DNA of 64,000 nucleotides from Patescibacteria group bacterium (GCA_041665345.1 JBAYJA010000005.1:2913-66912); one strand, 5' to 3'. Positions 26,240 to 61,333 are shown, counted from the first letter of the stretch. Notes: generated from the letters alone by a model not told the origin. Translations and numbers: made by a program.

Positions 26240-26725
26240 TTAGGTAACAGCTGAGGATTGATTGGCCGGAGTTCTTTTTTTTCGAATGAAGATGCCAATG
26301 GAGAATCCGATAGCACCGACGAAACTTGGCCACAAGCCAGGAATAATTTCCCAGGCAACGGATATCCAAACCCAGAGCGCAAAACTGAATCCGACAATTA
26401 GACTCGTTAGGTCGTTGCCCGCATCTTTCCATCGGCGCGAAAGCCCAGCGAAGACTCCAAGCACACCAATTGCTCCCCACCGCCAATTATCTGGGAATGT
26501 TGCAGCCTTGGTAAAAAGCATTCCAATGAGTCCGATCATACATCCCAGCCCAACGCCGATCCAGAAATCCTTCCAGCCAAATGAGCTATCCTTCTTTTGC
26601 TCTTCTTCCACTTTCCCTCCTTGGGTTATATTGTGTTTCACCGTATCTTGGCATGGGTTTTGGTGGCCGTCAAGCGCTGCCTGGACGGTCAGGAAGTCTG
26701 GTGGTAGGGTAGAGAAAAGAAACAT
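26240..26725 (-). CDS. hypothetical membrane protein
   Basis: Four hydrophobic segments; start uncertain. Confidence 0.35.
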   Translation of the reverse strand: MFLFSTLPPDFLTVQAALDGHQNPCQDTVKHNITQGGKVEEEQKKDSSFGWKDFWIGVGLGCMIGLIGMLFTKAATFPDNWRWGAIGVLGVFAGLSRRWKDAGNDLTSLIVGFSFALWVWISVAWEIIPGLWPSFVGAIGFSIGIFIRKKRTPANQSSAVT

Positions 26726-26743: not shown

Positions 26744-27151
26744 TTGAAATTTTACGTCATTACAGCATGCGTCACTGCGGCTATCATGTTGTTGCTGGTT
26801 AGCGTATTGCCCGGCGACTTGCTTACGCTTGTAGCATCGATGCTAGTCCTTAGCGGGATAGTACCCCTTGCATTTTTGGTTTTCGTTTTTGAAGGTGGGG
26901 GCGAGGTGTTTACTCCAGCTTTAGTCTGGCACCCGCCGGCCGTTTGTATTCTTACGACAGCCGCATACTTCCTAGTGTCCAGTTGGTCCTGGCTTCTGCT
27001 TTTTCTCATTCTTGGGAGTTTAGTTGCGTACGCCTTGCACCGAATTGTTGCTAGCGAATTTCCAATGCAACGCTCTTTCAGATTCCTTTGTACAGGAGCC
27101 GCACTCTGCGCCACAATATTTGTATCATTAGTAACGCAGTATCCAAAGTAG
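26744..27151 (+). CDS. hypothetical membrane protein (135 aa)
   Basis: Four predicted transmembrane helices. Confidence 0.35.
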   Translation: MKFYVITACVTAAIMLLLVSVLPGDLLTLVASMLVLSGIVPLAFLVFVFEGGGEVFTPALVWHPPAVCILTTAAYFLVSSWSWLLLFLILGSLVAYALHRIVASEFPMQRSFRFLCTGAALCATIFVSLVTQYPK

Positions 27152-27177
27152 ACAGCATCGTTTCCAAGGAGGAGAAT

Positions 27178-27552
27178 GTGGAAGACCTATGTAAGTGTGA
27201 CTGCCACACACAAGGTGCATACAACGGCGGTCTTGAGAATCGGCATCTGTGTAACTGTACCCTGTGTGCGTACTGTGGGCAGTACATCAAAGCCGGGTAT
27301 TGGGAATCGCACAGTGAAACTTGCATAGCCCGACTAGCGCTACAGCAAGTGCAGTCCGGTTGTACAGGGCCTGACTTCTGGGAATGCAGATGCATGTGCC
27401 ATTCCAGTGGCGGGGATCATTGCAAGCCCTGTTGCACACCCTGTTCGAATTGTGGCAAAAGGATTAGAACAGGATTTGAGAGCGATCATCTGACGAAGTG
27501 CAATCCTCGGTTTCGGATTTTGGCAGCTCCTGGTCCTACTCTTGCTCCATAG
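27178..27552 (+). CDS. Cys/His-rich small protein with internal tandem repeat (CxCxCH...CxCxxCxxC...H), paralog A
   Basis: GTG start 27178 preceded by AGGAGG. 18 Cys in about 125 aa. Two repeats: CKCDCH-x14-CNCTLCAYCGQYIKAGYWESHSETC and CRCMCH-x6-CKPCCTPCSNCGKRIRTGFESDHLTKC. Terminator follows at 27558. Confidence 0.45.
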   Translation: MEDLCKCDCHTQGAYNGGLENRHLCNCTLCAYCGQYIKAGYWESHSETCIARLALQQVQSGCTGPDFWECRCMCHSSGGDHCKPCCTPCSNCGKRIRTGFESDHLTKCNPRFRILAAPGPTLAP

Positions 27553-27557
27553 CACTT

Positions 27558-27589
27558 TCCCCTCACTCAAAAGAGAGTGAGGGGTTTTT
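27558..27589 (+). terminator. Rho-independent terminator
   Basis: cccctcactcaaaagagagtgagggg followed by ttttt. Confidence 0.7.
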
Positions 27590-29794: not shown

Positions 29795-30769
29795 CTACAG
29801 CTTTTTCTTCGCGCCCCAGTCAATGAAGACTGCGGGTTTCCCCTGGGATTTTTGAATATACTCAAAAGCTTTCAGTGCAGCCTTTGCGCCTTCACCCGCG
29901 GAGACAACAACCTGCTTAAACGAGATGGTGGTCACATCCCCAGCGGCAAAAATACCTGGAACACTGGTTTCACAATCTTTCGAAATGACAATTTGATTTC
30001 GCTTATCCAGCTCCAGCAAACCTTTTACCAAGTCTGGCTTTACCACATATCCAATTTCTGGGAATACTCCATCCACAGCCAAGCGCTGCACTTTTGTTGG
30101 ATCATCTGCTCTGGCAACGACTATCTCTTTTACCATTTCATCTCCAACAATCTCCAAGACGTTTGAAAAAGGAGTCAACTCAACCGTTTCCGCGGCCACC
30201 ACTTTTTGCGCCAGCGTGGCTTCGCCAACCGGGCACTCGCCCAAGCAAATGAGGTAGACTTTCGCCGCAACGTTTGAGAGTAGTAACGCTGAGTCCATGG
30301 CCGAGTTGCCGCCACCCACTACCGCCACAGTTTTCCCGCGGAATTTTTCCGCATCGGCATACGCGCTGTACGAAACGCCATGGCCAATGAGCGCATCTTC
30401 ACCCGGGACATTCATATGCTTGTGTGACAAGCCGTACGCCAGAATGACTGCACGGGCAGTGAATTGATTCCGAGCAGTGAGCACGTGGAAGAATTCATCA
30501 TCAGCTTTCTCCACTTTGCGGACTTCGTCAATTTTCACCACCGCGCCAAATTTTTCCGCCTGCTCCCGAAACAGCGTGGACAGATCTCGCCCATGGATCA
30601 TGCCCATGCCGGGGTAATTCTCAATGTGCGGCGTGGTGGCTGCCTGACCGCCAATGTCTTGGGAGATGATGAGCGTCGACAAACCCCGACGTGTCGCAAA
30701 AATGCCAGCCGTTAAACCAGCTGCTCCACCCCCAACAATGATGACGTCCAGCACTTGCTCGTCGGCCAT
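29795..30769 (-). CDS. trxB: thioredoxin-disulfide reductase
   Basis: VIIVGGGAAGLTAG FAD site, CLGEC?-type redox-active region, second GGGNSAMD NADPH site; adjacent to trxA. Confidence 0.85.
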   Translation of the reverse strand: MADEQVLDVIIVGGGAAGLTAGIFATRRGLSTLIISQDIGGQAATTPHIENYPGMGMIHGRDLSTLFREQAEKFGAVVKIDEVRKVEKADDEFFHVLTARNQFTARAVILAYGLSHKHMNVPGEDALIGHGVSYSAYADAEKFRGKTVAVVGGGNSAMDSALLLSNVAAKVYLICLGECPVGEATLAQKVVAAETVELTPFSNVLEIVGDEMVKEIVVARADDPTKVQRLAVDGVFPEIGYVVKPDLVKGLLELDKRNQIVISKDCETSVPGIFAAGDVTTISFKQVVVSAGEGAKAALKAFEYIQKSQGKPAVFIDWGAKKKL

Positions 30770-31535: not shown

Positions 31536-31960
31536 TCATTACGAAATACGAAAAAAGATACGAATATACGAATTACGAAATAAAGGAGATACGCCCCGCG
31601 GAGCGGGGTCCGGCTTCGCCGGAAATATACGAATATACAAATGGGGAGAGGACGGGGGTAACTCCGAGTGCGGGTCTCTGTGCCCGCAGCTCGACCCGGG
31701 ATGGATTGGAGGATGGGGAGGGTTTGGGTGTAGAGGCTTGTTAGGTTGGAAGGTTAGGGTATGGGCTTCAGAAGGACAGACCCTTTCTTCCAAACCCTAC
31801 ACCCTAACGAGCATCCATACCCTTGCCTACCTCACCGGTCACTTTCCGAGCCGGCCACCGGCCCGGAGAGTGACCGACCCAGGTTCCACCCCGGGCTCCC
31901 TCCGGGGCAGAGCCCGCCCCAGAGGGAGGGAGGACAGAAAAGCCACGCCTCGTTGCTACT
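31536..31960 (-). repeat. modular intergenic repeat, copy E2
   Basis: Heptads (ttacgaaatacgaa...atacgaattacgaa), the conserved double hairpin gatacgccccgcggagcggggtccggcttcgccgga (31585..31625), GGGGAG/GGGTTTGGGTGTAG G-rich modules, and cctaacgagcatccatacccttgc at the far end. Confidence 0.6.
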
Positions 31961-34060: not shown

Positions 34061-34136
34061 TGGTGGACCTCAGGAGACTCGAACTCCTTACCTCTTCCAT
34101 GCCATGGAAGCGCTCTACCAGATGAGCTAGAGGCCC
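34061..34136 (-). tRNA. tRNA-Ala (anticodon GGC), CCA encoded
   Basis: Reverse complement gggcctctagctcatctggtagagcgcttccatggcatggaagaggtaaggagttcgagtctcctgaggtccacca folds as a cloverleaf; G3:U70 Ala identity pair; anticodon loop aTGGCat. Confidence 0.85.
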
Positions 34137-34166
34137 ATATTGGGCGTACTTTAACATACCTACCAT

Positions 34167-34188
34167 AATTGTTCCACGTGGAACAATT
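34167..34188. promoter_or_regulatory. palindrome AATTGTTCCACGTGGAACAATT (copy 2), about 30 nt upstream of tRNA-Ala(GGC)
   Basis: Perfect 22-bp inverted repeat with a CACGTG core. Confidence 0.55.
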
Positions 34189-34201
34189 GTAACTAATCCC
34201 T

Positions 34202-34338
34202 GGATCCCGCGAACGTGGCGCGCACCCTGAGCACAGCCGAAGGGGAGCACGCGTTCGTGGGGAAAGGGGCAACCTTGTGGAGGGTGTAGTGGGGTGGACT
34301 TGCTCTGCCACACGAAACCCGACGCAAGGATTGACCCG
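34202..34338 (-). repeat. tRNA-trailer element copy T6 (after tRNA-Ala CGC), with a diverged 5' half
   Basis: 3' half ccccacgaacgcgtgctc...gcgcgccacgttcgcgggatcc matches the family; the 5' half is diverged. Confidence 0.5.
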
Positions 34339-34412
34339 TGGTGGACCTGGGGAGAATCGAACTCCCGTCTCAGCAATGCGAATGCCGTGTTCTACCACTG
34401 AACCACAGGCCC
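34339..34412 (-). tRNA. tRNA-Ala (anticodon CGC), CCA encoded
   Basis: Reverse complement gggcctgtggttcagtggtagaacacggcattcgcattgctgagacgggagttcgattctccccaggtccacca; G3:U70; anticodon loop tTCGCat. Confidence 0.8.
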
Positions 34413-34441
34413 ATATTTGGCTTAGGTAAGCGTTATTTTCT

Positions 34442-34463
34442 AATTGTTCCACGTGGAACAATT
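34442..34463. promoter_or_regulatory. palindrome AATTGTTCCACGTGGAACAATT (copy 3), about 30 nt upstream of tRNA-Ala(CGC)
   Basis: Exact 22-bp palindrome. Confidence 0.55.
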
Positions 34464-34570
34464 AAATTTCAATAATTTGGCTTTATCCTGACCCAAAGCC
34501 ACCTTCTCTTAGCCTGGGTCAAGGGACCCAGGCCACCCACTTTTGAGCTATTCTTTAAGAGTACTAAAAT

Positions 34571-34721
34571 CTTCGGGGGTCCCCACAGATGTGGCGCGCA
34601 GTCTCCCGAGCGTAGTCGAGGGGGACGAGCACGCGTCTGTGGGGTAAAGCGAGGCTTCGTGCGACGGGCGGAGCGGATTCGGTAGCAACCGGATACGCGC
34701 AGCTCTGAGCACGAAACGAGC
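34571..34721 (-). repeat. tRNA-trailer element copy T4 (after tRNA-Arg CCU)
   Basis: Minus strand: gctcgtttcgtgctcagagctgcgcgtatccggttgctaccgaatccg...cacgaagcctcgctttaccccacagacgcgtgctc...gcgcgccacatctgtggggacccccgaag. Confidence 0.65.
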
Positions 34722-34796
34722 TGGTGCCCCCGGAGGGAATCGAACCCCCATCTCTCCCTTAGGACGGGATTGCTCAATCCATTGAGCTACAGGGGC
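34722..34796 (-). tRNA. tRNA-Arg (anticodon CCU), CCA encoded
   Basis: Reverse complement gcccctgtagctcaatggattgagcaatcccgtcctaagggagagatgggggttcgattccctccgggggcacca; cloverleaf with anticodon loop gtCCTaa. Confidence 0.75.
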
Positions 34797-37575: not shown

Positions 37576-37815
37576 ATAGGGTTACGAATTACGAAAAGAT
37601 ACTACGAAAATACGAATGTACGAATGGGGATACGCCCCGCGGAGCGGGGTCCGGCTCCGCCGGAAATTACGAATGGGGAGGGTGGGAATACGGGACTCAA
37701 GATTGTAGAGTGTCTCCCTCGCCCTCTGAGGGAGAGAGAGGGTTGGTTATGGTTCCCAGCGCGGGTGTCCCTGCCCGCGCTGGACTGGGGATGGTTGGAG
37801 GGTGAGGGGTAGGTA
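37570..37815 (-). repeat. modular intergenic repeat, copy E3
   Basis: gttacgaattacgaaaagatactacgaaaatacgaatgtacgaatgggg; double hairpin gatacgccccgcggagcggggtccggctccgccgga (37627..37665); G-rich modules. Confidence 0.6.
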
Positions 37816-38663: not shown

Positions 38664-38795
38664 GCAACCTCCTTTATTCAGTTTTCAAAGTTTTTTGTTA
38701 TTAACCAAGCAGTATATTATTGAAAGTGCATTTTGTCAATAATCTTCTTATGAAATGTTGACAAATTATCAATATTCTATATAATATATACATTA

Positions 38796-39572
38796 TTGAC
38801 GAAAATATTCGTCATCAATATGACTGAGCTGCAAACCCAATTGCGTACCCTTGGTTGGCCGGATAAGCAGATTACTGTGTACTCTGCCCTTTTGGGCTTA
38901 GGATCCGCAGGTGCGTCAGAAATTGCTGAAGGAGTGAAGCTCCCCCGGCAGACTGTCTATAGCCTTCTCTCCGAACTCCTGGAAAAAGAAGTTATCGAGC
39001 AAAGTGACCAACAAGGGGTGAAGCAGTTTGTGGCAAATCCAGACGCGTTGCTACTTCGTCTAGAGAAAGACCAGCTACAATTGCAAAAAACCAAGACCGA
39101 GTTAGCTGCAGAACTACCCAAGATTCTTGCCAAGCAACGTCGCAAACCTTCTTACCCGCAGGTGACGTACTACGAAGGGAAAGAAGGTTTGAAACGATTA
39201 TTCAACGGCATTCTCCATTTTTACCAACGTGATGGCGAAAAAGCCTTTCGGGGCTACGGCGTAAACTTCATGAAGCCTGCCCTGGGTGATTTTCTGTACA
39301 CGTTTGTGAAGAAGCGGAGTGAGTATGGAGTGGACACCAAGCTCTTCATTGGTCTGGGGCCAGATGATTTTGGGATAACTGGACCAGAGAACCAACTCCA
39401 GCGAGATATCAAGCGTCTGAACATGCCTGCGGCGAAAGCGGGGGTGTATTTGGTTGGTGATCGGGCGTACCTTTTTTCTTTTGTAGACAATGTGGGTGTC
39501 ATGGTAGAGAACCCGGCAATCGTTGAACTCCTCAAGCGTGCTTTTGATGATCATTGGAAGAAATCCAATTAA
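38796..39572 (+). CDS. TrmB-family transcriptional regulator (paralog 1)
   Basis: N-terminal winged helix (LGLGSAGASEIAEGVKLPRQTVYSLLSELLEKEVIE) plus a roughly 180-aa C-terminal domain. Palindrome TGACGAAAATATTCGTCA overlaps its start region. Confidence 0.6.
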   Translation: MTKIFVINMTELQTQLRTLGWPDKQITVYSALLGLGSAGASEIAEGVKLPRQTVYSLLSELLEKEVIEQSDQQGVKQFVANPDALLLRLEKDQLQLQKTKTELAAELPKILAKQRRKPSYPQVTYYEGKEGLKRLFNGILHFYQRDGEKAFRGYGVNFMKPALGDFLYTFVKKRSEYGVDTKLFIGLGPDDFGITGPENQLQRDIKRLNMPAAKAGVYLVGDRAYLFSFVDNVGVMVENPAIVELLKRAFDDHWKKSN

Positions 39573-39658
39573 CAAAGTGTTACTTGCTTGTTCTTGCCTT
39601 TTCTCAATAATTCTTTAGACTGCAAACAAGAGGAAAGCAAACACGGAAAGGAGAAAAA

Positions 39659-39865
39659 ATGGCTCTCAGTGATTATTGTCCCCCAGACTGGAGTTACTGC
39701 AAATGTGAATGTCATATGACGGCAAGCGATAGTTGCGGGTGCAATTGTCAATTTTGTAACGCCTGTAAGCGCTACATTGCTGGACCTTTCGAAAAACATC
39801 AGCAAGAGGTACACCCAAAAACGGTCTCTCAAAAATGCTGTTCTGGACCAATCTCCATAGTCTAG
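39659..39865 (+). CDS. Cys/His-rich small protein, paralog B of 27178..27552
   Basis: CKCECH-x6-CGCNCQFCNACKRYIAGPFEKHQQEVH, the same motif order as paralog A; 68 aa. Confidence 0.45.
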   Translation: MALSDYCPPDWSYCKCECHMTASDSCGCNCQFCNACKRYIAGPFEKHQQEVHPKTVSQKCCSGPISIV

Positions 39866-39926
39866 TTCCTCGAAGCGCCTCTCCATTGACGGAAAGGCGC
39901 TTTTTTTGTAGAATCATGGCACTCCT

Positions 39927-60800: not shown

Positions 60801-60876
60801 GCGCCCGTAGCTCAACGGATAGAGTACATGGCTTCGAACCATGGGGTTGGGGGTTCGATTCCCTCCGGGCGCACCA
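60801..60876 (+). tRNA. tRNA-Arg (anticodon UCG), CCA encoded
   Basis: gcgcccgtagctcaacggatagagtacatggcttcgaaccatggggttgggggttcgattccctccgggcgcacca; anticodon loop cTTCGaa. Confidence 0.8.
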
Positions 60877-61026
60877 GCTCGTTTCGTGCTCCGCCCTGCG
60901 TGTAGCCGTTGCTACGGCTCCACTCCGGACTCCGCACGAAGCCTCGCTTTGCCCCACAAACCCGTGCTCCCCTTCGATTCGCTTCGCTCACTCAGGGTCC
61001 GCTTCGTGTTTGTGGGGACCCCGAAG
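60877..61026 (+). repeat. tRNA-trailer element copy T1
   Basis: gctcgtttcgtgctccgccctgcgtgtagccgttgctacggctcc...cacgaagcctcgctttgccccacaaac...gtttgtggggaccccgaag; starts at the first nucleotide after CCA. Confidence 0.65.
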
Positions 61027-61033
61027 AAAGCTC

Positions 61034-61110
61034 GGGCAACTAGCTCAGTTGGTTAGAGCGTCTCGTTTACACCGAGAAGGTCGTAGGTTCGACTCCTACG
61101 TTGCCCACCA
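61034..61110 (+). tRNA. tRNA-Val (anticodon UAC), CCA encoded
   Basis: gggcaactagctcagttggttagagcgtctcgtttacaccgagaaggtcgtaggttcgactcctacgttgcccacca; anticodon loop tTTACac. Confidence 0.85.
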
Positions 61111-61247
61111 GCTCGTTTCGCGCTCAGAGCTGCGCGTATCCGGTTGCTACCGAATCCGCTCCGCCCGTCGCGCGAAGCCTCGCTTTACCCCAGAAACGCG
61201 TGCTCGTCCTGATGCAGGACTGCGCGCCACATTTCTGGGGACCCCGG
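61111..61247 (+). repeat. tRNA-trailer element copy T2
   Basis: gctcgtttcgcgctcagagctgcgcgtatccggttgctaccgaatccg...cgcgaagcctcgctttaccccagaaacgcgtgctcgtcctgatgcaggactgcgcgccacatttctggggaccccgg. Confidence 0.65.
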
Positions 61248-61257
61248 AAAAAATTAT

Positions 61258-61333
61258 GGGCCCTTAGCTCATTTGGTAGAGCGCCGCGTTTGCAACGCGG
61301 AGGTGACCGGTTCGAGCCCGGTAGGGTCCACCA
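61258..61333 (+). tRNA. tRNA-Ala (anticodon UGC), CCA encoded
   Basis: gggcccttagctcatttggtagagcgccgcgtttgcaacgcggaggtgaccggttcgagcccggtagggtccacca; G3:U70; anticodon loop tTTGCaa. Confidence 0.85.

What the first reader, a model, noticed from the sequence alone, without database searches (positions are those of the whole stretch)
27178..27552. Paralogous Cys/His-rich small proteins with a CxCxCH...CxCxxCxxC tandem motif (second copy at 39659..39865)
The 27178 protein has 18 Cys and about 7 His in 125 aa, arranged as two internal repeats: CKCDCH-x14-CNCTLCAYCGQYIKAGYWESHSETC and CRCMCH-x6-CKPCCTPCSNCGKRIRTGFESDHLTKC. The 68-aa protein at 39659 has one unit with the same order, CKCECH-x6-CGCNCQFCNACKRYIAGPFEKHQQEVH. 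The arrangement resembles bacterial metallothionein-like CxC/CxxC clusters fused to a C2HC-type finger. I cannot assign it to a named family. One copy sits next to a TrmB regulator.
Basis: seen in the sequence. Interest (0 to 1): 0.6.

Follow-up and report, generated by a model that had tools for sequence, protein, structure and literature searches.

The report
Unannotated multi-zinc-finger mini-protein family
Two small genes in this Patescibacteria (CPR) genome, missed or mis-framed by public annotation, encode members of an undescribed family of Cys/His-rich mini-proteins that most likely fold around several zinc ions, and whose cellular role is still unknown.

Summary
Gene A (27178..27552, 124 aa, two units) and gene B (39659..39865, 68 aa, one unit) are real genes. 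Each has a Shine-Dalgarno site and a strong terminator hairpin. They belong to a family of about 125 non-redundant small proteins (median 72 aa).

The family signature is C-x-C-x-C-H-x(4-11)-H-x3-C-C-x2-C-x2-C-x(10-12)-H-x(3-4)-[C/H]. Eleven ligand positions are conserved, and Cys and His swap at two of them.

The C-terminal half is a classical C2HC beta-beta-alpha zinc finger of the RAD18-UBZ / TRAF / Sgf11 / LYAR type, but only by weak profile hits and medium-confidence AlphaFold models. The N-terminal CxCxCH...H-x3-CC half matches nothing known. Pfam, NCBIfam, PHROGs and PADLOC gave no family hit.

Members occur mainly in CPR bacteria and in a few phage contigs, with no conserved neighbours. 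Copy number varies, and in the one orthologue pair compared the non-ligand residues have diverged strongly.

The most likely reading is a zinc-scaffolded binding module. Metallothionein-like metal buffering is the main rival. The metallothionein label is not supported as family membership. The function is inferred, not shown.

The parts
27178..27552 (+). Gene A: 124-aa protein with two units (GTG start; stop codon included)
   Evidence: ORF and sequence. 44% identical to the two-unit relative P0001, with the same architecture and the same C-terminal ...LAP ending. In the ENA assembly of this genome the overlapping 50-aa ATG ORF 27176..27328 in another frame was called instead.
27166..27172 (+). 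Shine-Dalgarno site AAGGAGG, 5 nt upstream of the GTG start of gene A
   Evidence: Read directly from the sequence.
27190..27324 (+). Gene A unit 1 (residues 5-49), 'type 1' variant: CKCDCH-x12-H-x-C-x-C-x2-C-x2-C-x11-H-x3-C
   Evidence: Regex hits. The same H-x-C-x-C variant occurs in unit 1 of P0001 and P0002. AlphaFold places strands at residues 27-29 and 36-38 and a helix from residue 42.
27385..27501 (+). Gene A unit 2 (residues 70-108), canonical: CRCMCH-x5-H-x3-CC-x2-C-x2-C-x11-H-x3-C
   Evidence: Regex hits. AlphaFold model of this unit has mean pLDDT 73, rising to 77-86 in the core, with a beta-hairpin plus helix carrying the C2HC ligands.
27559..27589 (+). Intrinsic terminator after gene A (10-bp stem plus U-tract)
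   Evidence: -20.0 kcal/mol, z = -5.2.
26744..27151 (+). Upstream 135-aa membrane-protein gene, 26 nt before gene A; possibly co-transcribed with it
   Evidence: ORF. No significant family match. No convincing promoter between it and gene A. The link to gene A is inferred only.
39659..39865 (+). Gene B: 68-aa protein with one unit (ATG start; stop codon included)
   Evidence: ORF and sequence. Identical ORF present but not called in the ENA and JGI assemblies. The flanking GenBank proteins have consecutive accessions (MFA6042404/05), so gene B is unannotated there too.
39648..39653 (+). Shine-Dalgarno site AAGGAG, 5 nt upstream of the ATG start of gene B
   Evidence: Read directly from the sequence.
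39698..39814 (+). Gene B unit (residues 14-52), 'type 1' variant. The second His is replaced by Cys (C-x-C-x-C) and the last ligand is His.
   Evidence: alignments.
39872..39907 (+). Terminator hairpin plus U7 tract after gene B. A promoter-like site for infB overlaps it.
   Evidence: -18.9 kcal/mol, z = -3.5. Promoter-like site at 39886-39914.
38796..39572 (+). TrmB-like HTH regulator gene, probably in one operon with gene B
   Evidence: PF01978, E = 7e-11. A 12/12 consensus promoter lies at 38758-38785, and no promoter-like site lies between this gene and gene B.

Best explanation
Genes A and B encode cytoplasmic mini-proteins of an undescribed family. The repeat unit is about 40-45 residues and is a composite, multi-zinc structural domain.

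The last four ligands (C-x2-C-x11-H-x3-C/H) form a classical C2HC beta-beta-alpha zinc finger. The seven preceding conserved ligands (C-x-C-x-C-H, then H-x3-C-C) pack against that finger. They probably hold one or two more zinc ions, for example through an 'H-x3-C' knuckle that abuts the next finger's CxxC, as in tandem CCHC fingers.

The metal framework is fixed, while most surface residues are free to vary. On that basis the protein most likely acts as a small zinc-stabilised binding module (an adaptor or regulator) for a protein or nucleic-acid partner. It is deployed as a stand-alone gene in CPR bacteria and some phages.

Shown: the genes are real, the family exists, and the ligand framework is conserved. 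Supported: the C2HC finger fold. Inferred: zinc as the metal, a stoichiometry of 2-3 per unit, and the binding-module function.
For: Real genes. Each has a ribosome-binding site and a terminator. About 125 non-redundant relatives exist. A syntenic orthologue pair, L018/L021, has pN 0.278 against pS 0.77.

Ligand framework. Seven Cys and two His are invariant in an alignment of 65 full-length HMMER hits that was not filtered by any pattern. A third His is at least 90% conserved there. The spacing is tight: the C-to-H gap is 11 residues in 114 of 137 units, and H-x3-C/H occurs in 114 of 137.

Metal ligands rather than disulfides. The last ligand is Cys in 109 units and His in 28. The second His is replaced by Cys at the same position in P0004, P0006 and P0012 (unit 2 of each) and in gene B. 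No member has an N-terminal hydrophobic run.

Folded finger. Pro before CC is conserved (93/135), as are Gly after the knuckle (84/135), Ile/Val (135/135) and aromatic positions. AlphaFold gives beta-hairpin plus helix over C30/C33/H45/C49 in both units of gene A. The profile hits only the C-terminal half of the unit: TRAFD1 2d9k (E = 1.4e-3), RAD18 UBZ (5.7e-3), CCHFV Gn tail (0.013), Sgf11 (0.038) and LYAR (0.042). Foldseek overlays 23-30 residues on the Sgf11, RAD18 and WRNIP1 fingers at 0.5-1.2 A, although the E-values are above 1.

Module behaviour. Proteins carry 1 or 2 units. One viral contig fuses a unit to a cytidylyltransferase-like domain. One member sits in a T4-like phage next to gp23, and another in a phage-like region of small genes. 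No neighbour is conserved. Orthologues are 52% identical while the adjacent ThyA is 95.5% identical, and one of the two genomes has an extra copy.
Against: There is no experimental metal or partner data. The AlphaFold models are only medium confidence (pLDDT 73 and 68, from 11-12 sequences), and no coordinates were available to check the ligand geometry. All fold-search hits are non-significant, and all PDB sequence hits are marginal. Eleven conserved ligands do not divide into complete tetrahedral sites, so the number of metals is open. The family's net charge is near zero (median -1), which gives no hint of nucleic-acid binding. Fast divergence of non-ligand residues and high ligand density also fit a metallothionein-like role. 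The divergence rate rests on a single orthologue pair with saturated synonymous sites, so it may reflect a paralogue replacement.
Confidence: 0.55

Rival explanations
1. Metallothionein-like metal buffer, store or chaperone. On this reading the dense Cys/His array binds several Zn(II), or Cu(I)/Cd(II), exchangeably. It would supply or sequester metal in small-genome CPR cells. This is the functional version of the first reader's idea.
For: About 25% of unit residues are Cys or His, with 11-13 per unit in 120 of 137 units. CxC and CC motifs are typical of thiolate clusters. Units are duplicated in tandem, and a genome can hold several copies. No partner gene is conserved. Non-ligand residues diverge fast.
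Against: There is no match to metallothionein models in Pfam or NCBIfam. Spacing is rigid, and the conserved Pro, Gly, Ile and aromatic core positions plus the predicted beta-beta-alpha secondary structure indicate a fixed fold. Presence in phage genomes and a fusion to an enzyme domain are odd for a metal store. No metal transporter or metal-sensing regulator is evident next to either gene; the only hint is an insignificant CadD match (E = 0.13).
Confidence: 0.2
2. Iron-sulfur or redox-switch protein. Here the C-C-x2-C-x2-C stretch and the CxCxCH motif would ligate an Fe-S cluster, or act as a thiol or zinc-thiolate redox sensor. The thioredoxin/thioredoxin-reductase pair lying 2-4 kb from gene A could be related.
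For: C-x2-C-x2-C resembles the ferredoxin motif. Thioredoxin reductase (29795..30769) and thioredoxin genes lie nearby.
Against: The fourth ferredoxin Cys (x3-C-P) is absent; the next residues are G-[KR]-x-I. The last two Cys of that stretch pair with a His and a Cys/His at C2HC finger spacing, and they match zinc fingers in the PDB. The trx genes are on the opposite strand, separated from gene A by two other genes. They are absent from the other loci examined.
Confidence: 0.1
3. Exported disulfide-rich peptide or RiPP precursor, such as a bacteriocin or a SCIFF/ranthipeptide-type peptide.
For: The proteins are small and Cys-rich, the genes stand alone, and the sequence outside the Cys positions is variable.
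Against: No member has a signal peptide or hydrophobic run. No radical-SAM enzyme, cyclase, protease or ABC exporter lies next to either gene or recurs at other loci. His positions are invariant and interchange with Cys, which points to metal ligation rather than disulfides.
Confidence: 0.05
4. Chance ORFs in non-coding sequence ('GC-rich noise'). The real gene at 27176 would then be the 50-aa ORF called by the ENA pipeline.
For: Public gene callers did not call either Cys-rich frame.
Against: There are about 125 relatives with the same framework, including a 44%-identical two-unit relative. The orthologue pair has pN well below pS. Ribosome-binding sites and terminators frame exactly these ORFs. 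The motif count is 3 against 0.08 expected.
Confidence: 0.02

Closest known systems
C2HC (CCHC) beta-beta-alpha zinc fingers of the UBZ4 / TRAF-type / Sgf11 class: RAD18 UBZ (PDB 5vf0, 2mre), TRAFD1/FLN29 (2d9k), Sgf11 (2lo2, 3m99)
   Same: The C-terminal 20-25 residues of every unit have the same ligand spacing, C-x2-C-x11-H-x3-C. They share the G after the knuckle, a hydrophobic residue at +4 and an acidic residue before the His. The predicted fold is a beta-hairpin plus helix. These are the best profile hits (E = 1e-3 to 4e-2) and the best local structural overlays.
   Different: Those fingers are single-zinc modules in large eukaryotic proteins, where they bind ubiquitin or nucleosomes. 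Here the finger is always preceded by seven further conserved ligands, and it occurs in stand-alone prokaryotic or phage mini-proteins. No Pfam finger model reaches its threshold.
LYAR-type tandem C2HC zinc fingers (PDB 1wjv; Pfam zf-LYAR)
   Same: LYAR has ...H-x3-C-x2-C-x-C-x2-C-x2-C-G-x10-H. This is the same C-x-C-x2-C-x2-C-G string as the 'type 1' units (gene A unit 1 and gene B), with an H-x3-C immediately upstream.
   Different: The match is marginal (E = 0.04 with the family profile, 4.6 with the three-unit profile). LYAR lacks the CxCxCH motif, and its first finger is a full-length C2HC finger.
Bunyavirus Gn cytoplasmic-tail dual CCHC zinc fingers (CCHFV, PDB 2l7x)
   Same: The arrangement is back to back: the H-x3-C end of one zinc site directly abuts the CxxC of the next finger. 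The profile alignment covers 'H-x3-C...C-x2-C...H-x3-C'. This offers a model for how the N-terminal H-x3-C could belong to a second site packed on the finger.
   Different: E = 0.013 only. The viral first finger uses a normal C-x2-C pair and a 12-residue spacer, not CxCxCH with a 4-11 residue loop. There is no second Cys after the H-x3-C.
Bacterial metallothioneins (SmtA/BmtA family)
   Same: Small, cytoplasmic and rich in Cys and His. They contain CxC motifs and bind several metals per roughly 50 residues. SmtA itself contains a zinc-finger-like sub-fold (my own knowledge, not tested here).
   Different: There is no detectable sequence relationship. The ligand order and spacing differ. The present family has a recognisable C2HC finger and strongly conserved non-ligand positions.

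Membership tests
C2HC beta-beta-alpha zinc finger (UBZ4 / TRAF-type / Sgf11 / LYAR class) | Ligand spacing C-x2-C-x(10-12)-H-x(3-4)-C/H | tested here: met
   All three window units have it. Across the family the C-to-H gap is x11 in 114 of 137 units, and H-x3 occurs in 114 of 137.
C2HC beta-beta-alpha zinc finger (UBZ4 / TRAF-type / Sgf11 / LYAR class) | Beta-hairpin carrying the CxxC knuckle, followed by a helix carrying H and C | tested here: met
   AlphaFold secondary structure: strands 27-29 and 36-38 with helix 42-49 in the unit 2 model, and the same pattern twice in full-length gene A. The models are of medium confidence only.
C2HC beta-beta-alpha zinc finger (UBZ4 / TRAF-type / Sgf11 / LYAR class) | Significant sequence or structure match to family models | tested here: inconclusive
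   PDB profile hits reach E = 1.4e-3 to 4e-2 and cover only profile positions 28-55. All Foldseek E-values are above 0.5. Pfam zf_UBZ, Sgf11 and Sina_ZnF hits are sporadic (1-2 of 65 members) and below threshold.
C2HC beta-beta-alpha zinc finger (UBZ4 / TRAF-type / Sgf11 / LYAR class) | One Zn(II) bound tetrahedrally by the four ligands | not testable with these tools
   Needs metal analysis or a structure. No model coordinates were available.
Bacterial metallothionein (SmtA/BmtA) | Match to the family's sequence models | tested here: not met
   No Pfam or NCBIfam hit for the window proteins at E <= 1 or 10. No metallothionein family appears among the hits of 65 members.
Bacterial metallothionein (SmtA/BmtA) | Polynuclear, exchangeable metal-thiolate cluster and metal-responsive expression | not testable with these tools
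   Needs biochemistry and expression data.
4Fe-4S ferredoxin-type cluster motif | C-x2-C-x2-C-x3-C(P) | tested here: not met
   After C-x2-C-x2-C the consensus is G-[KRQ]-[NR]-I-[KR], with no Cys at +4.
RiPP precursor (SCIFF / ranthipeptide-like) | Adjacent radical-SAM or other maturase, and an exporter | tested here: not met
   The neighbours are a membrane protein, a methyltransferase, GDH, a TrmB-like regulator and IF-2. No neighbour family recurs across 18 loci.
Known anti-phage defence or phage protein families | Match to PADLOC or PHROG models | tested here: not met
   PHROGs gave 0 of 65 members. PADLOC gave no hit for the window proteins.

The most novel reading that the evidence does not exclude
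The unit is a new three-zinc 'knot' domain. Its N-terminal CxCxCH / H-x3-CC cluster has no structural precedent. CPR bacteria and their phages would use it as a rapidly diversifying, copy-number-variable binding scaffold in host-symbiont or phage-host conflict. Standard gene callers largely miss it.
Probability: 0.2. Interest if true: 0.7.

Novelty: new variant of a known kind. Interest (0 to 1): 0.5.

Why it matters
CPR/Patescibacteria genomes are full of small proteins of unknown function. This work defines one coherent family of about 125 clusters, with a precise and testable metal-ligand signature.

It also shows that public pipelines either skip these genes (gene B is absent from the ENA, JGI and GenBank annotations) or call the wrong frame (gene A). 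Protein databases therefore under-represent the family.

If the N-terminal CxCxCH...H-x3-CC cluster proves to be a new zinc-binding topology fused to a C2HC finger, it adds a new type of prokaryotic zinc finger. C2HC/UBZ-like fingers are mostly known from eukaryotes. Its occurrence in both CPR cells and phages, together with its fast divergence, would make it a candidate player in their interactions.

If it is instead a metal buffer, it would be a new prokaryotic metallothionein class.

Tried and rejected
- **Word-indexed protein search.** With gene A it found nothing. With the family alignments it found only 8 and 4 hits. The index is poorly suited to this family, and many members are uncalled.
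- **Exact look-ups.** Genes A and B are not on record in the protein collection.
- **The search for related loci.** With gene A alone against genome contigs, no relative was confirmed.
- **Variable-gap DNA pattern.** The tool rejected it. I used fixed-gap codon patterns instead. About half the hits in metagenomes and IMG/VR were TGC/CAC simple repeats: L015-17, L019, L022, L024, L025, L027, L028 and L031.
- **tblastn against GenBank phages.** No match.
- **Literature searches for the motif.** Nothing relevant.
- **Strain variation upstream of the TrmB-like gene.** An apparent difference between L001 and L002 turned out to be only a difference between gene callers. The DNA is 99.94% identical.
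- **Conserved neighbourhood.** None found, including for TrmB.

Full report
**1. Observation**

Gene A runs 27178..27552 on the + strand with a GTG start. It encodes 124 aa with 18 Cys and 6 His. Gene B runs 39659..39865 on the + strand with an ATG start. It encodes 68 aa with 11 Cys and 3 His. The quoted motifs and spacers are exact.

C-x-C-x-C-H occurs three times in the six-frame translation of the window, against 0.08 expected from shuffles. Each occurrence is followed by C-x2-C-x2-C...H...C/H, and the window holds no other copy. The two proteins align at E of about 1e-6.

Each gene has an AGGAG-type ribosome-binding site 5 nt upstream of its start codon. Each is followed by a strong hairpin with a U-tract: -20.0 and -18.9 kcal/mol, with no shuffle folding as well.

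Gene B has no promoter-like site of its own. A perfect TTGACA-16-TATAAT promoter lies upstream of the preceding TrmB-like gene, so the two are probably one operon. The downstream infB gene has its own promoter-like site. Gene A lies 26 nt after a 135-aa membrane-protein gene and may be co-transcribed with it.

**2. Source and annotation status**

The IF-2 and TrmB-like proteins of the window are recorded in GenBank as 'MAG... [Patescibacteria group bacterium]'. Their accessions are consecutive, so gene B, which lies between them, is not annotated there. The same DNA in an ENA assembly and a JGI assembly carries the intact ORF, but no gene was called. The JGI contig is 99.94% identical to the window.

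For gene A, the ENA pipeline called an overlapping 50-aa ATG ORF (27176..27328) in another frame. This explains why exact look-ups and the word-indexed search found nothing.

**3. A real family**

A profile of the three units was searched against 1.84 billion cluster representatives. It returned 128 hits at E <= 1e-3. Three are repeat-rich or finger-only false positives: P0042, P0082 and P0117. The rest are small proteins (median 72 aa) with one unit (111 proteins) or two units (13 proteins).

The signature is [D][FLW][ED][EIV]-C-x-C-x-C-H-x(4-11)-H-x3-C-C-x2-C-x2-C-[GK]-[KRQ]-[NR]-[IV]-[KR]-x(6)-H-x(3-4)-[C/H]. In an alignment of 65 full-length hits that was not selected by any pattern, seven Cys and two His are invariant and a third His is at least 90% conserved.

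Two ligand positions interchange Cys and His:
- The last ligand is Cys in 109 units and His in 28.
- The second His is replaced by Cys in several units, including gene B.

This interchange, together with the lack of any hydrophobic leader, argues for metal ligands rather than disulfides.

Gene A unit 1, gene B, and the first units of P0001 and P0002 share a variant, H/C-x-C-x-C, in place of H-x3-C-C. P0001 is 44% identical to gene A over both units and has the same C-terminal tail.

**4. Not a described family**

Pfam, NCBIfam, PHROGs and PADLOC give no family-level match to the window proteins or to 65 members. Literature searches for the motif found nothing relevant.

**5. Structure**

A 135-unit profile searched against PDB sequences hits only with its C-terminal half (profile positions 28-55). 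The hits are C2HC fingers: TRAFD1/FLN29 (E = 1.4e-3), RAD18 UBZ (5.7e-3), CCHFV Gn tail (0.013), Sgf11 (0.038) and LYAR (0.042) (an earlier weak LYAR hit is).

AlphaFold2 on gene A unit 2, with 12 aligned sequences, gives mean pLDDT 73, rising to 77-86 in the core. It shows a beta-hairpin and a helix that carry C30, C33, H45 and C49. Full-length gene A repeats this pattern in both units, with low inter-domain confidence (pLDDT 68, pTM 0.39).

Foldseek finds no significant match in PDB or BFVD. It does overlay 23-30 residues on the Sgf11, RAD18 and WRNIP1 fingers at 0.5-1.2 A.

So the C-terminal finger is a known kind. The N-terminal C-x-C-x-C-H...H-x3-C-C part has no detectable counterpart.

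The 'H-x3-C' directly before the finger's CxxC resembles the junction of tandem CCHC fingers in LYAR and the bunyavirus Gn tail. This suggests a compact second zinc site. The remaining Cys2-His ligands may complete a third site or bridge to another.

The minimal ligand count is 11 per unit (38 of 137 units have exactly 11 Cys+His). Optional extra Cys occur at H+1 (57/135) and at about -7 from the first Cys (26/137).

**6. Distribution and context**

A codon-pattern scan of one genome per GTDB species found two members. Both are CPR: Ca. Saccharibacteria and Ca. Vogelbacteria.

In the metagenome and protein look-ups, members sit beside varied housekeeping genes. Those neighbours include UvrB, MscL and ClpB; NusB and RNase III; malic enzyme; SHMT and ThyA; and, on a 694-kb contig, EF-Tu.

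Other members lie in a T4-like phage contig next to gp23, and in a phage-like array of small genes. Two IMG/VR contigs also carry members. One of them is a fusion of a unit to a cytidylyltransferase-like domain.

GenBank phage genomes gave no tblastn match. An all-against-all comparison of neighbours across 18 loci found no recurrent partner.

**7. Evolution**

Two syntenic contigs, L018 and L021, share the order dUTPase-SHMT-[family gene]-ThyA. Their ThyA proteins are 95.5% identical, but the family proteins are only 52% identical, with every ligand kept.

For the family gene, pN is 0.278 against 0.025 for ThyA, and pS is 0.77 against 0.47. The ratio pN/pS of about 0.36 is still consistent with a coding sequence under constraint. 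L021 also carries an extra 92-aa family gene at the same spot. This is a single comparison, and the saturated synonymous sites could mean a paralogue replacement.

**8. Interpretation**

The best-supported reading is a zinc-scaffolded mini-domain used as a binding module, with confidence of about 0.55 for the whole statement. The sub-claim 'a genuine metal-binding protein family with a C2HC finger' is much more secure.

The rivals are:
- metallothionein-like metal buffering (0.2);
- an Fe-S or redox protein (0.1);
- an exported peptide or RiPP precursor (0.05);
- a chance ORF (0.02).

**9. Verdict**

The finding is real. It is a new, unannotated family that combines a known finger type with an undescribed Cys3His-His-Cys2 cluster, which I class as a new variant of a known kind. 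Interest is moderate (0.5). The sequence pattern is clear, the gap in public annotation is evident, and a possibly new zinc topology sits in an under-studied lineage. The function is unknown, and nothing so far points to a surprising mechanism.

Noticed in passing
window 37582-37680 and 31539-31640: An intergenic element of about 95 nt is repeated at 86% identity. It consists of runs of ATACGAAT-like heptamers followed by two GC-rich hairpins, CCCCGC-GGA-GCGGGG and CCGGC-TYC-GCCGG. It could be a small RNA, a terminator cassette or a REP-like element.
   Followed up: partly
window 27176-27328 (+): In the ENA assembly of this genome the gene caller chose a 50-aa ATG ORF in a different frame, overlapping the start of gene A, instead of the 124-aa GTG ORF. 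Gene B is absent from the ENA, JGI and GenBank annotations. Cys-rich small genes of this family are probably under-represented in protein databases.
   Followed up: yes
L018 5299-5505 and L021 6419-7056: These are syntenic groundwater contigs (dUTPase-SHMT-[family gene]-ThyA). The family gene is 52% identical between them while the adjacent ThyA is 95.5% identical. L021 has an additional 92-aa family gene inserted at the same site.
   Followed up: yes
L030 4680-5255 (IMG/VR UViG_3300020577_013547): A 191-aa viral protein fuses one family unit at its N-terminus to a cytidylyltransferase-like domain (PF01467, E = 1.2e-6). It is the only domain fusion seen for the family.
   Followed up: partly
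window 38758-38785 (+): A perfect sigma-70 consensus promoter, TTGACA-16-TATAAT (12/12), lies upstream of the TrmB-like gene. A divergent 11/12 promoter is on the opposite strand at 38739-38711.
   Followed up: no
window 26240-26725 (-) and 26744-27151 (+): Two divergently oriented small membrane-protein genes lie just upstream of gene A. Only insignificant matches were found: CadD cadmium transporter (E = 0.13), phage holin (weak) and a PADLOC 2TM effector (E = 0.0017). A link to metal handling or lysis is unproven.
   Followed up: partly
window 34064-34796 (-) and 60801-61330 (+): Two clusters of three tRNA genes each.
   Followed up: no
L015, L016, L017, L019, L022, L024, L025, L027, L028, L031: Codon-pattern scans for Cys/His motifs pick up TGC/CAC-type simple-sequence repeats, which translate to poly-(C/H) ORFs. 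One is in a giant-virus MAG. These are false positives for the family.
   Followed up: yes
L010 1650-2003: The Ca. Vogelbacteria member (117 aa) has a degenerate first unit (CTHCGCVCH...H-x3-CC...C-x2-C, with no C2HC helix ligands) ahead of a canonical second unit. This suggests units can decay after duplication.
   Followed up: no
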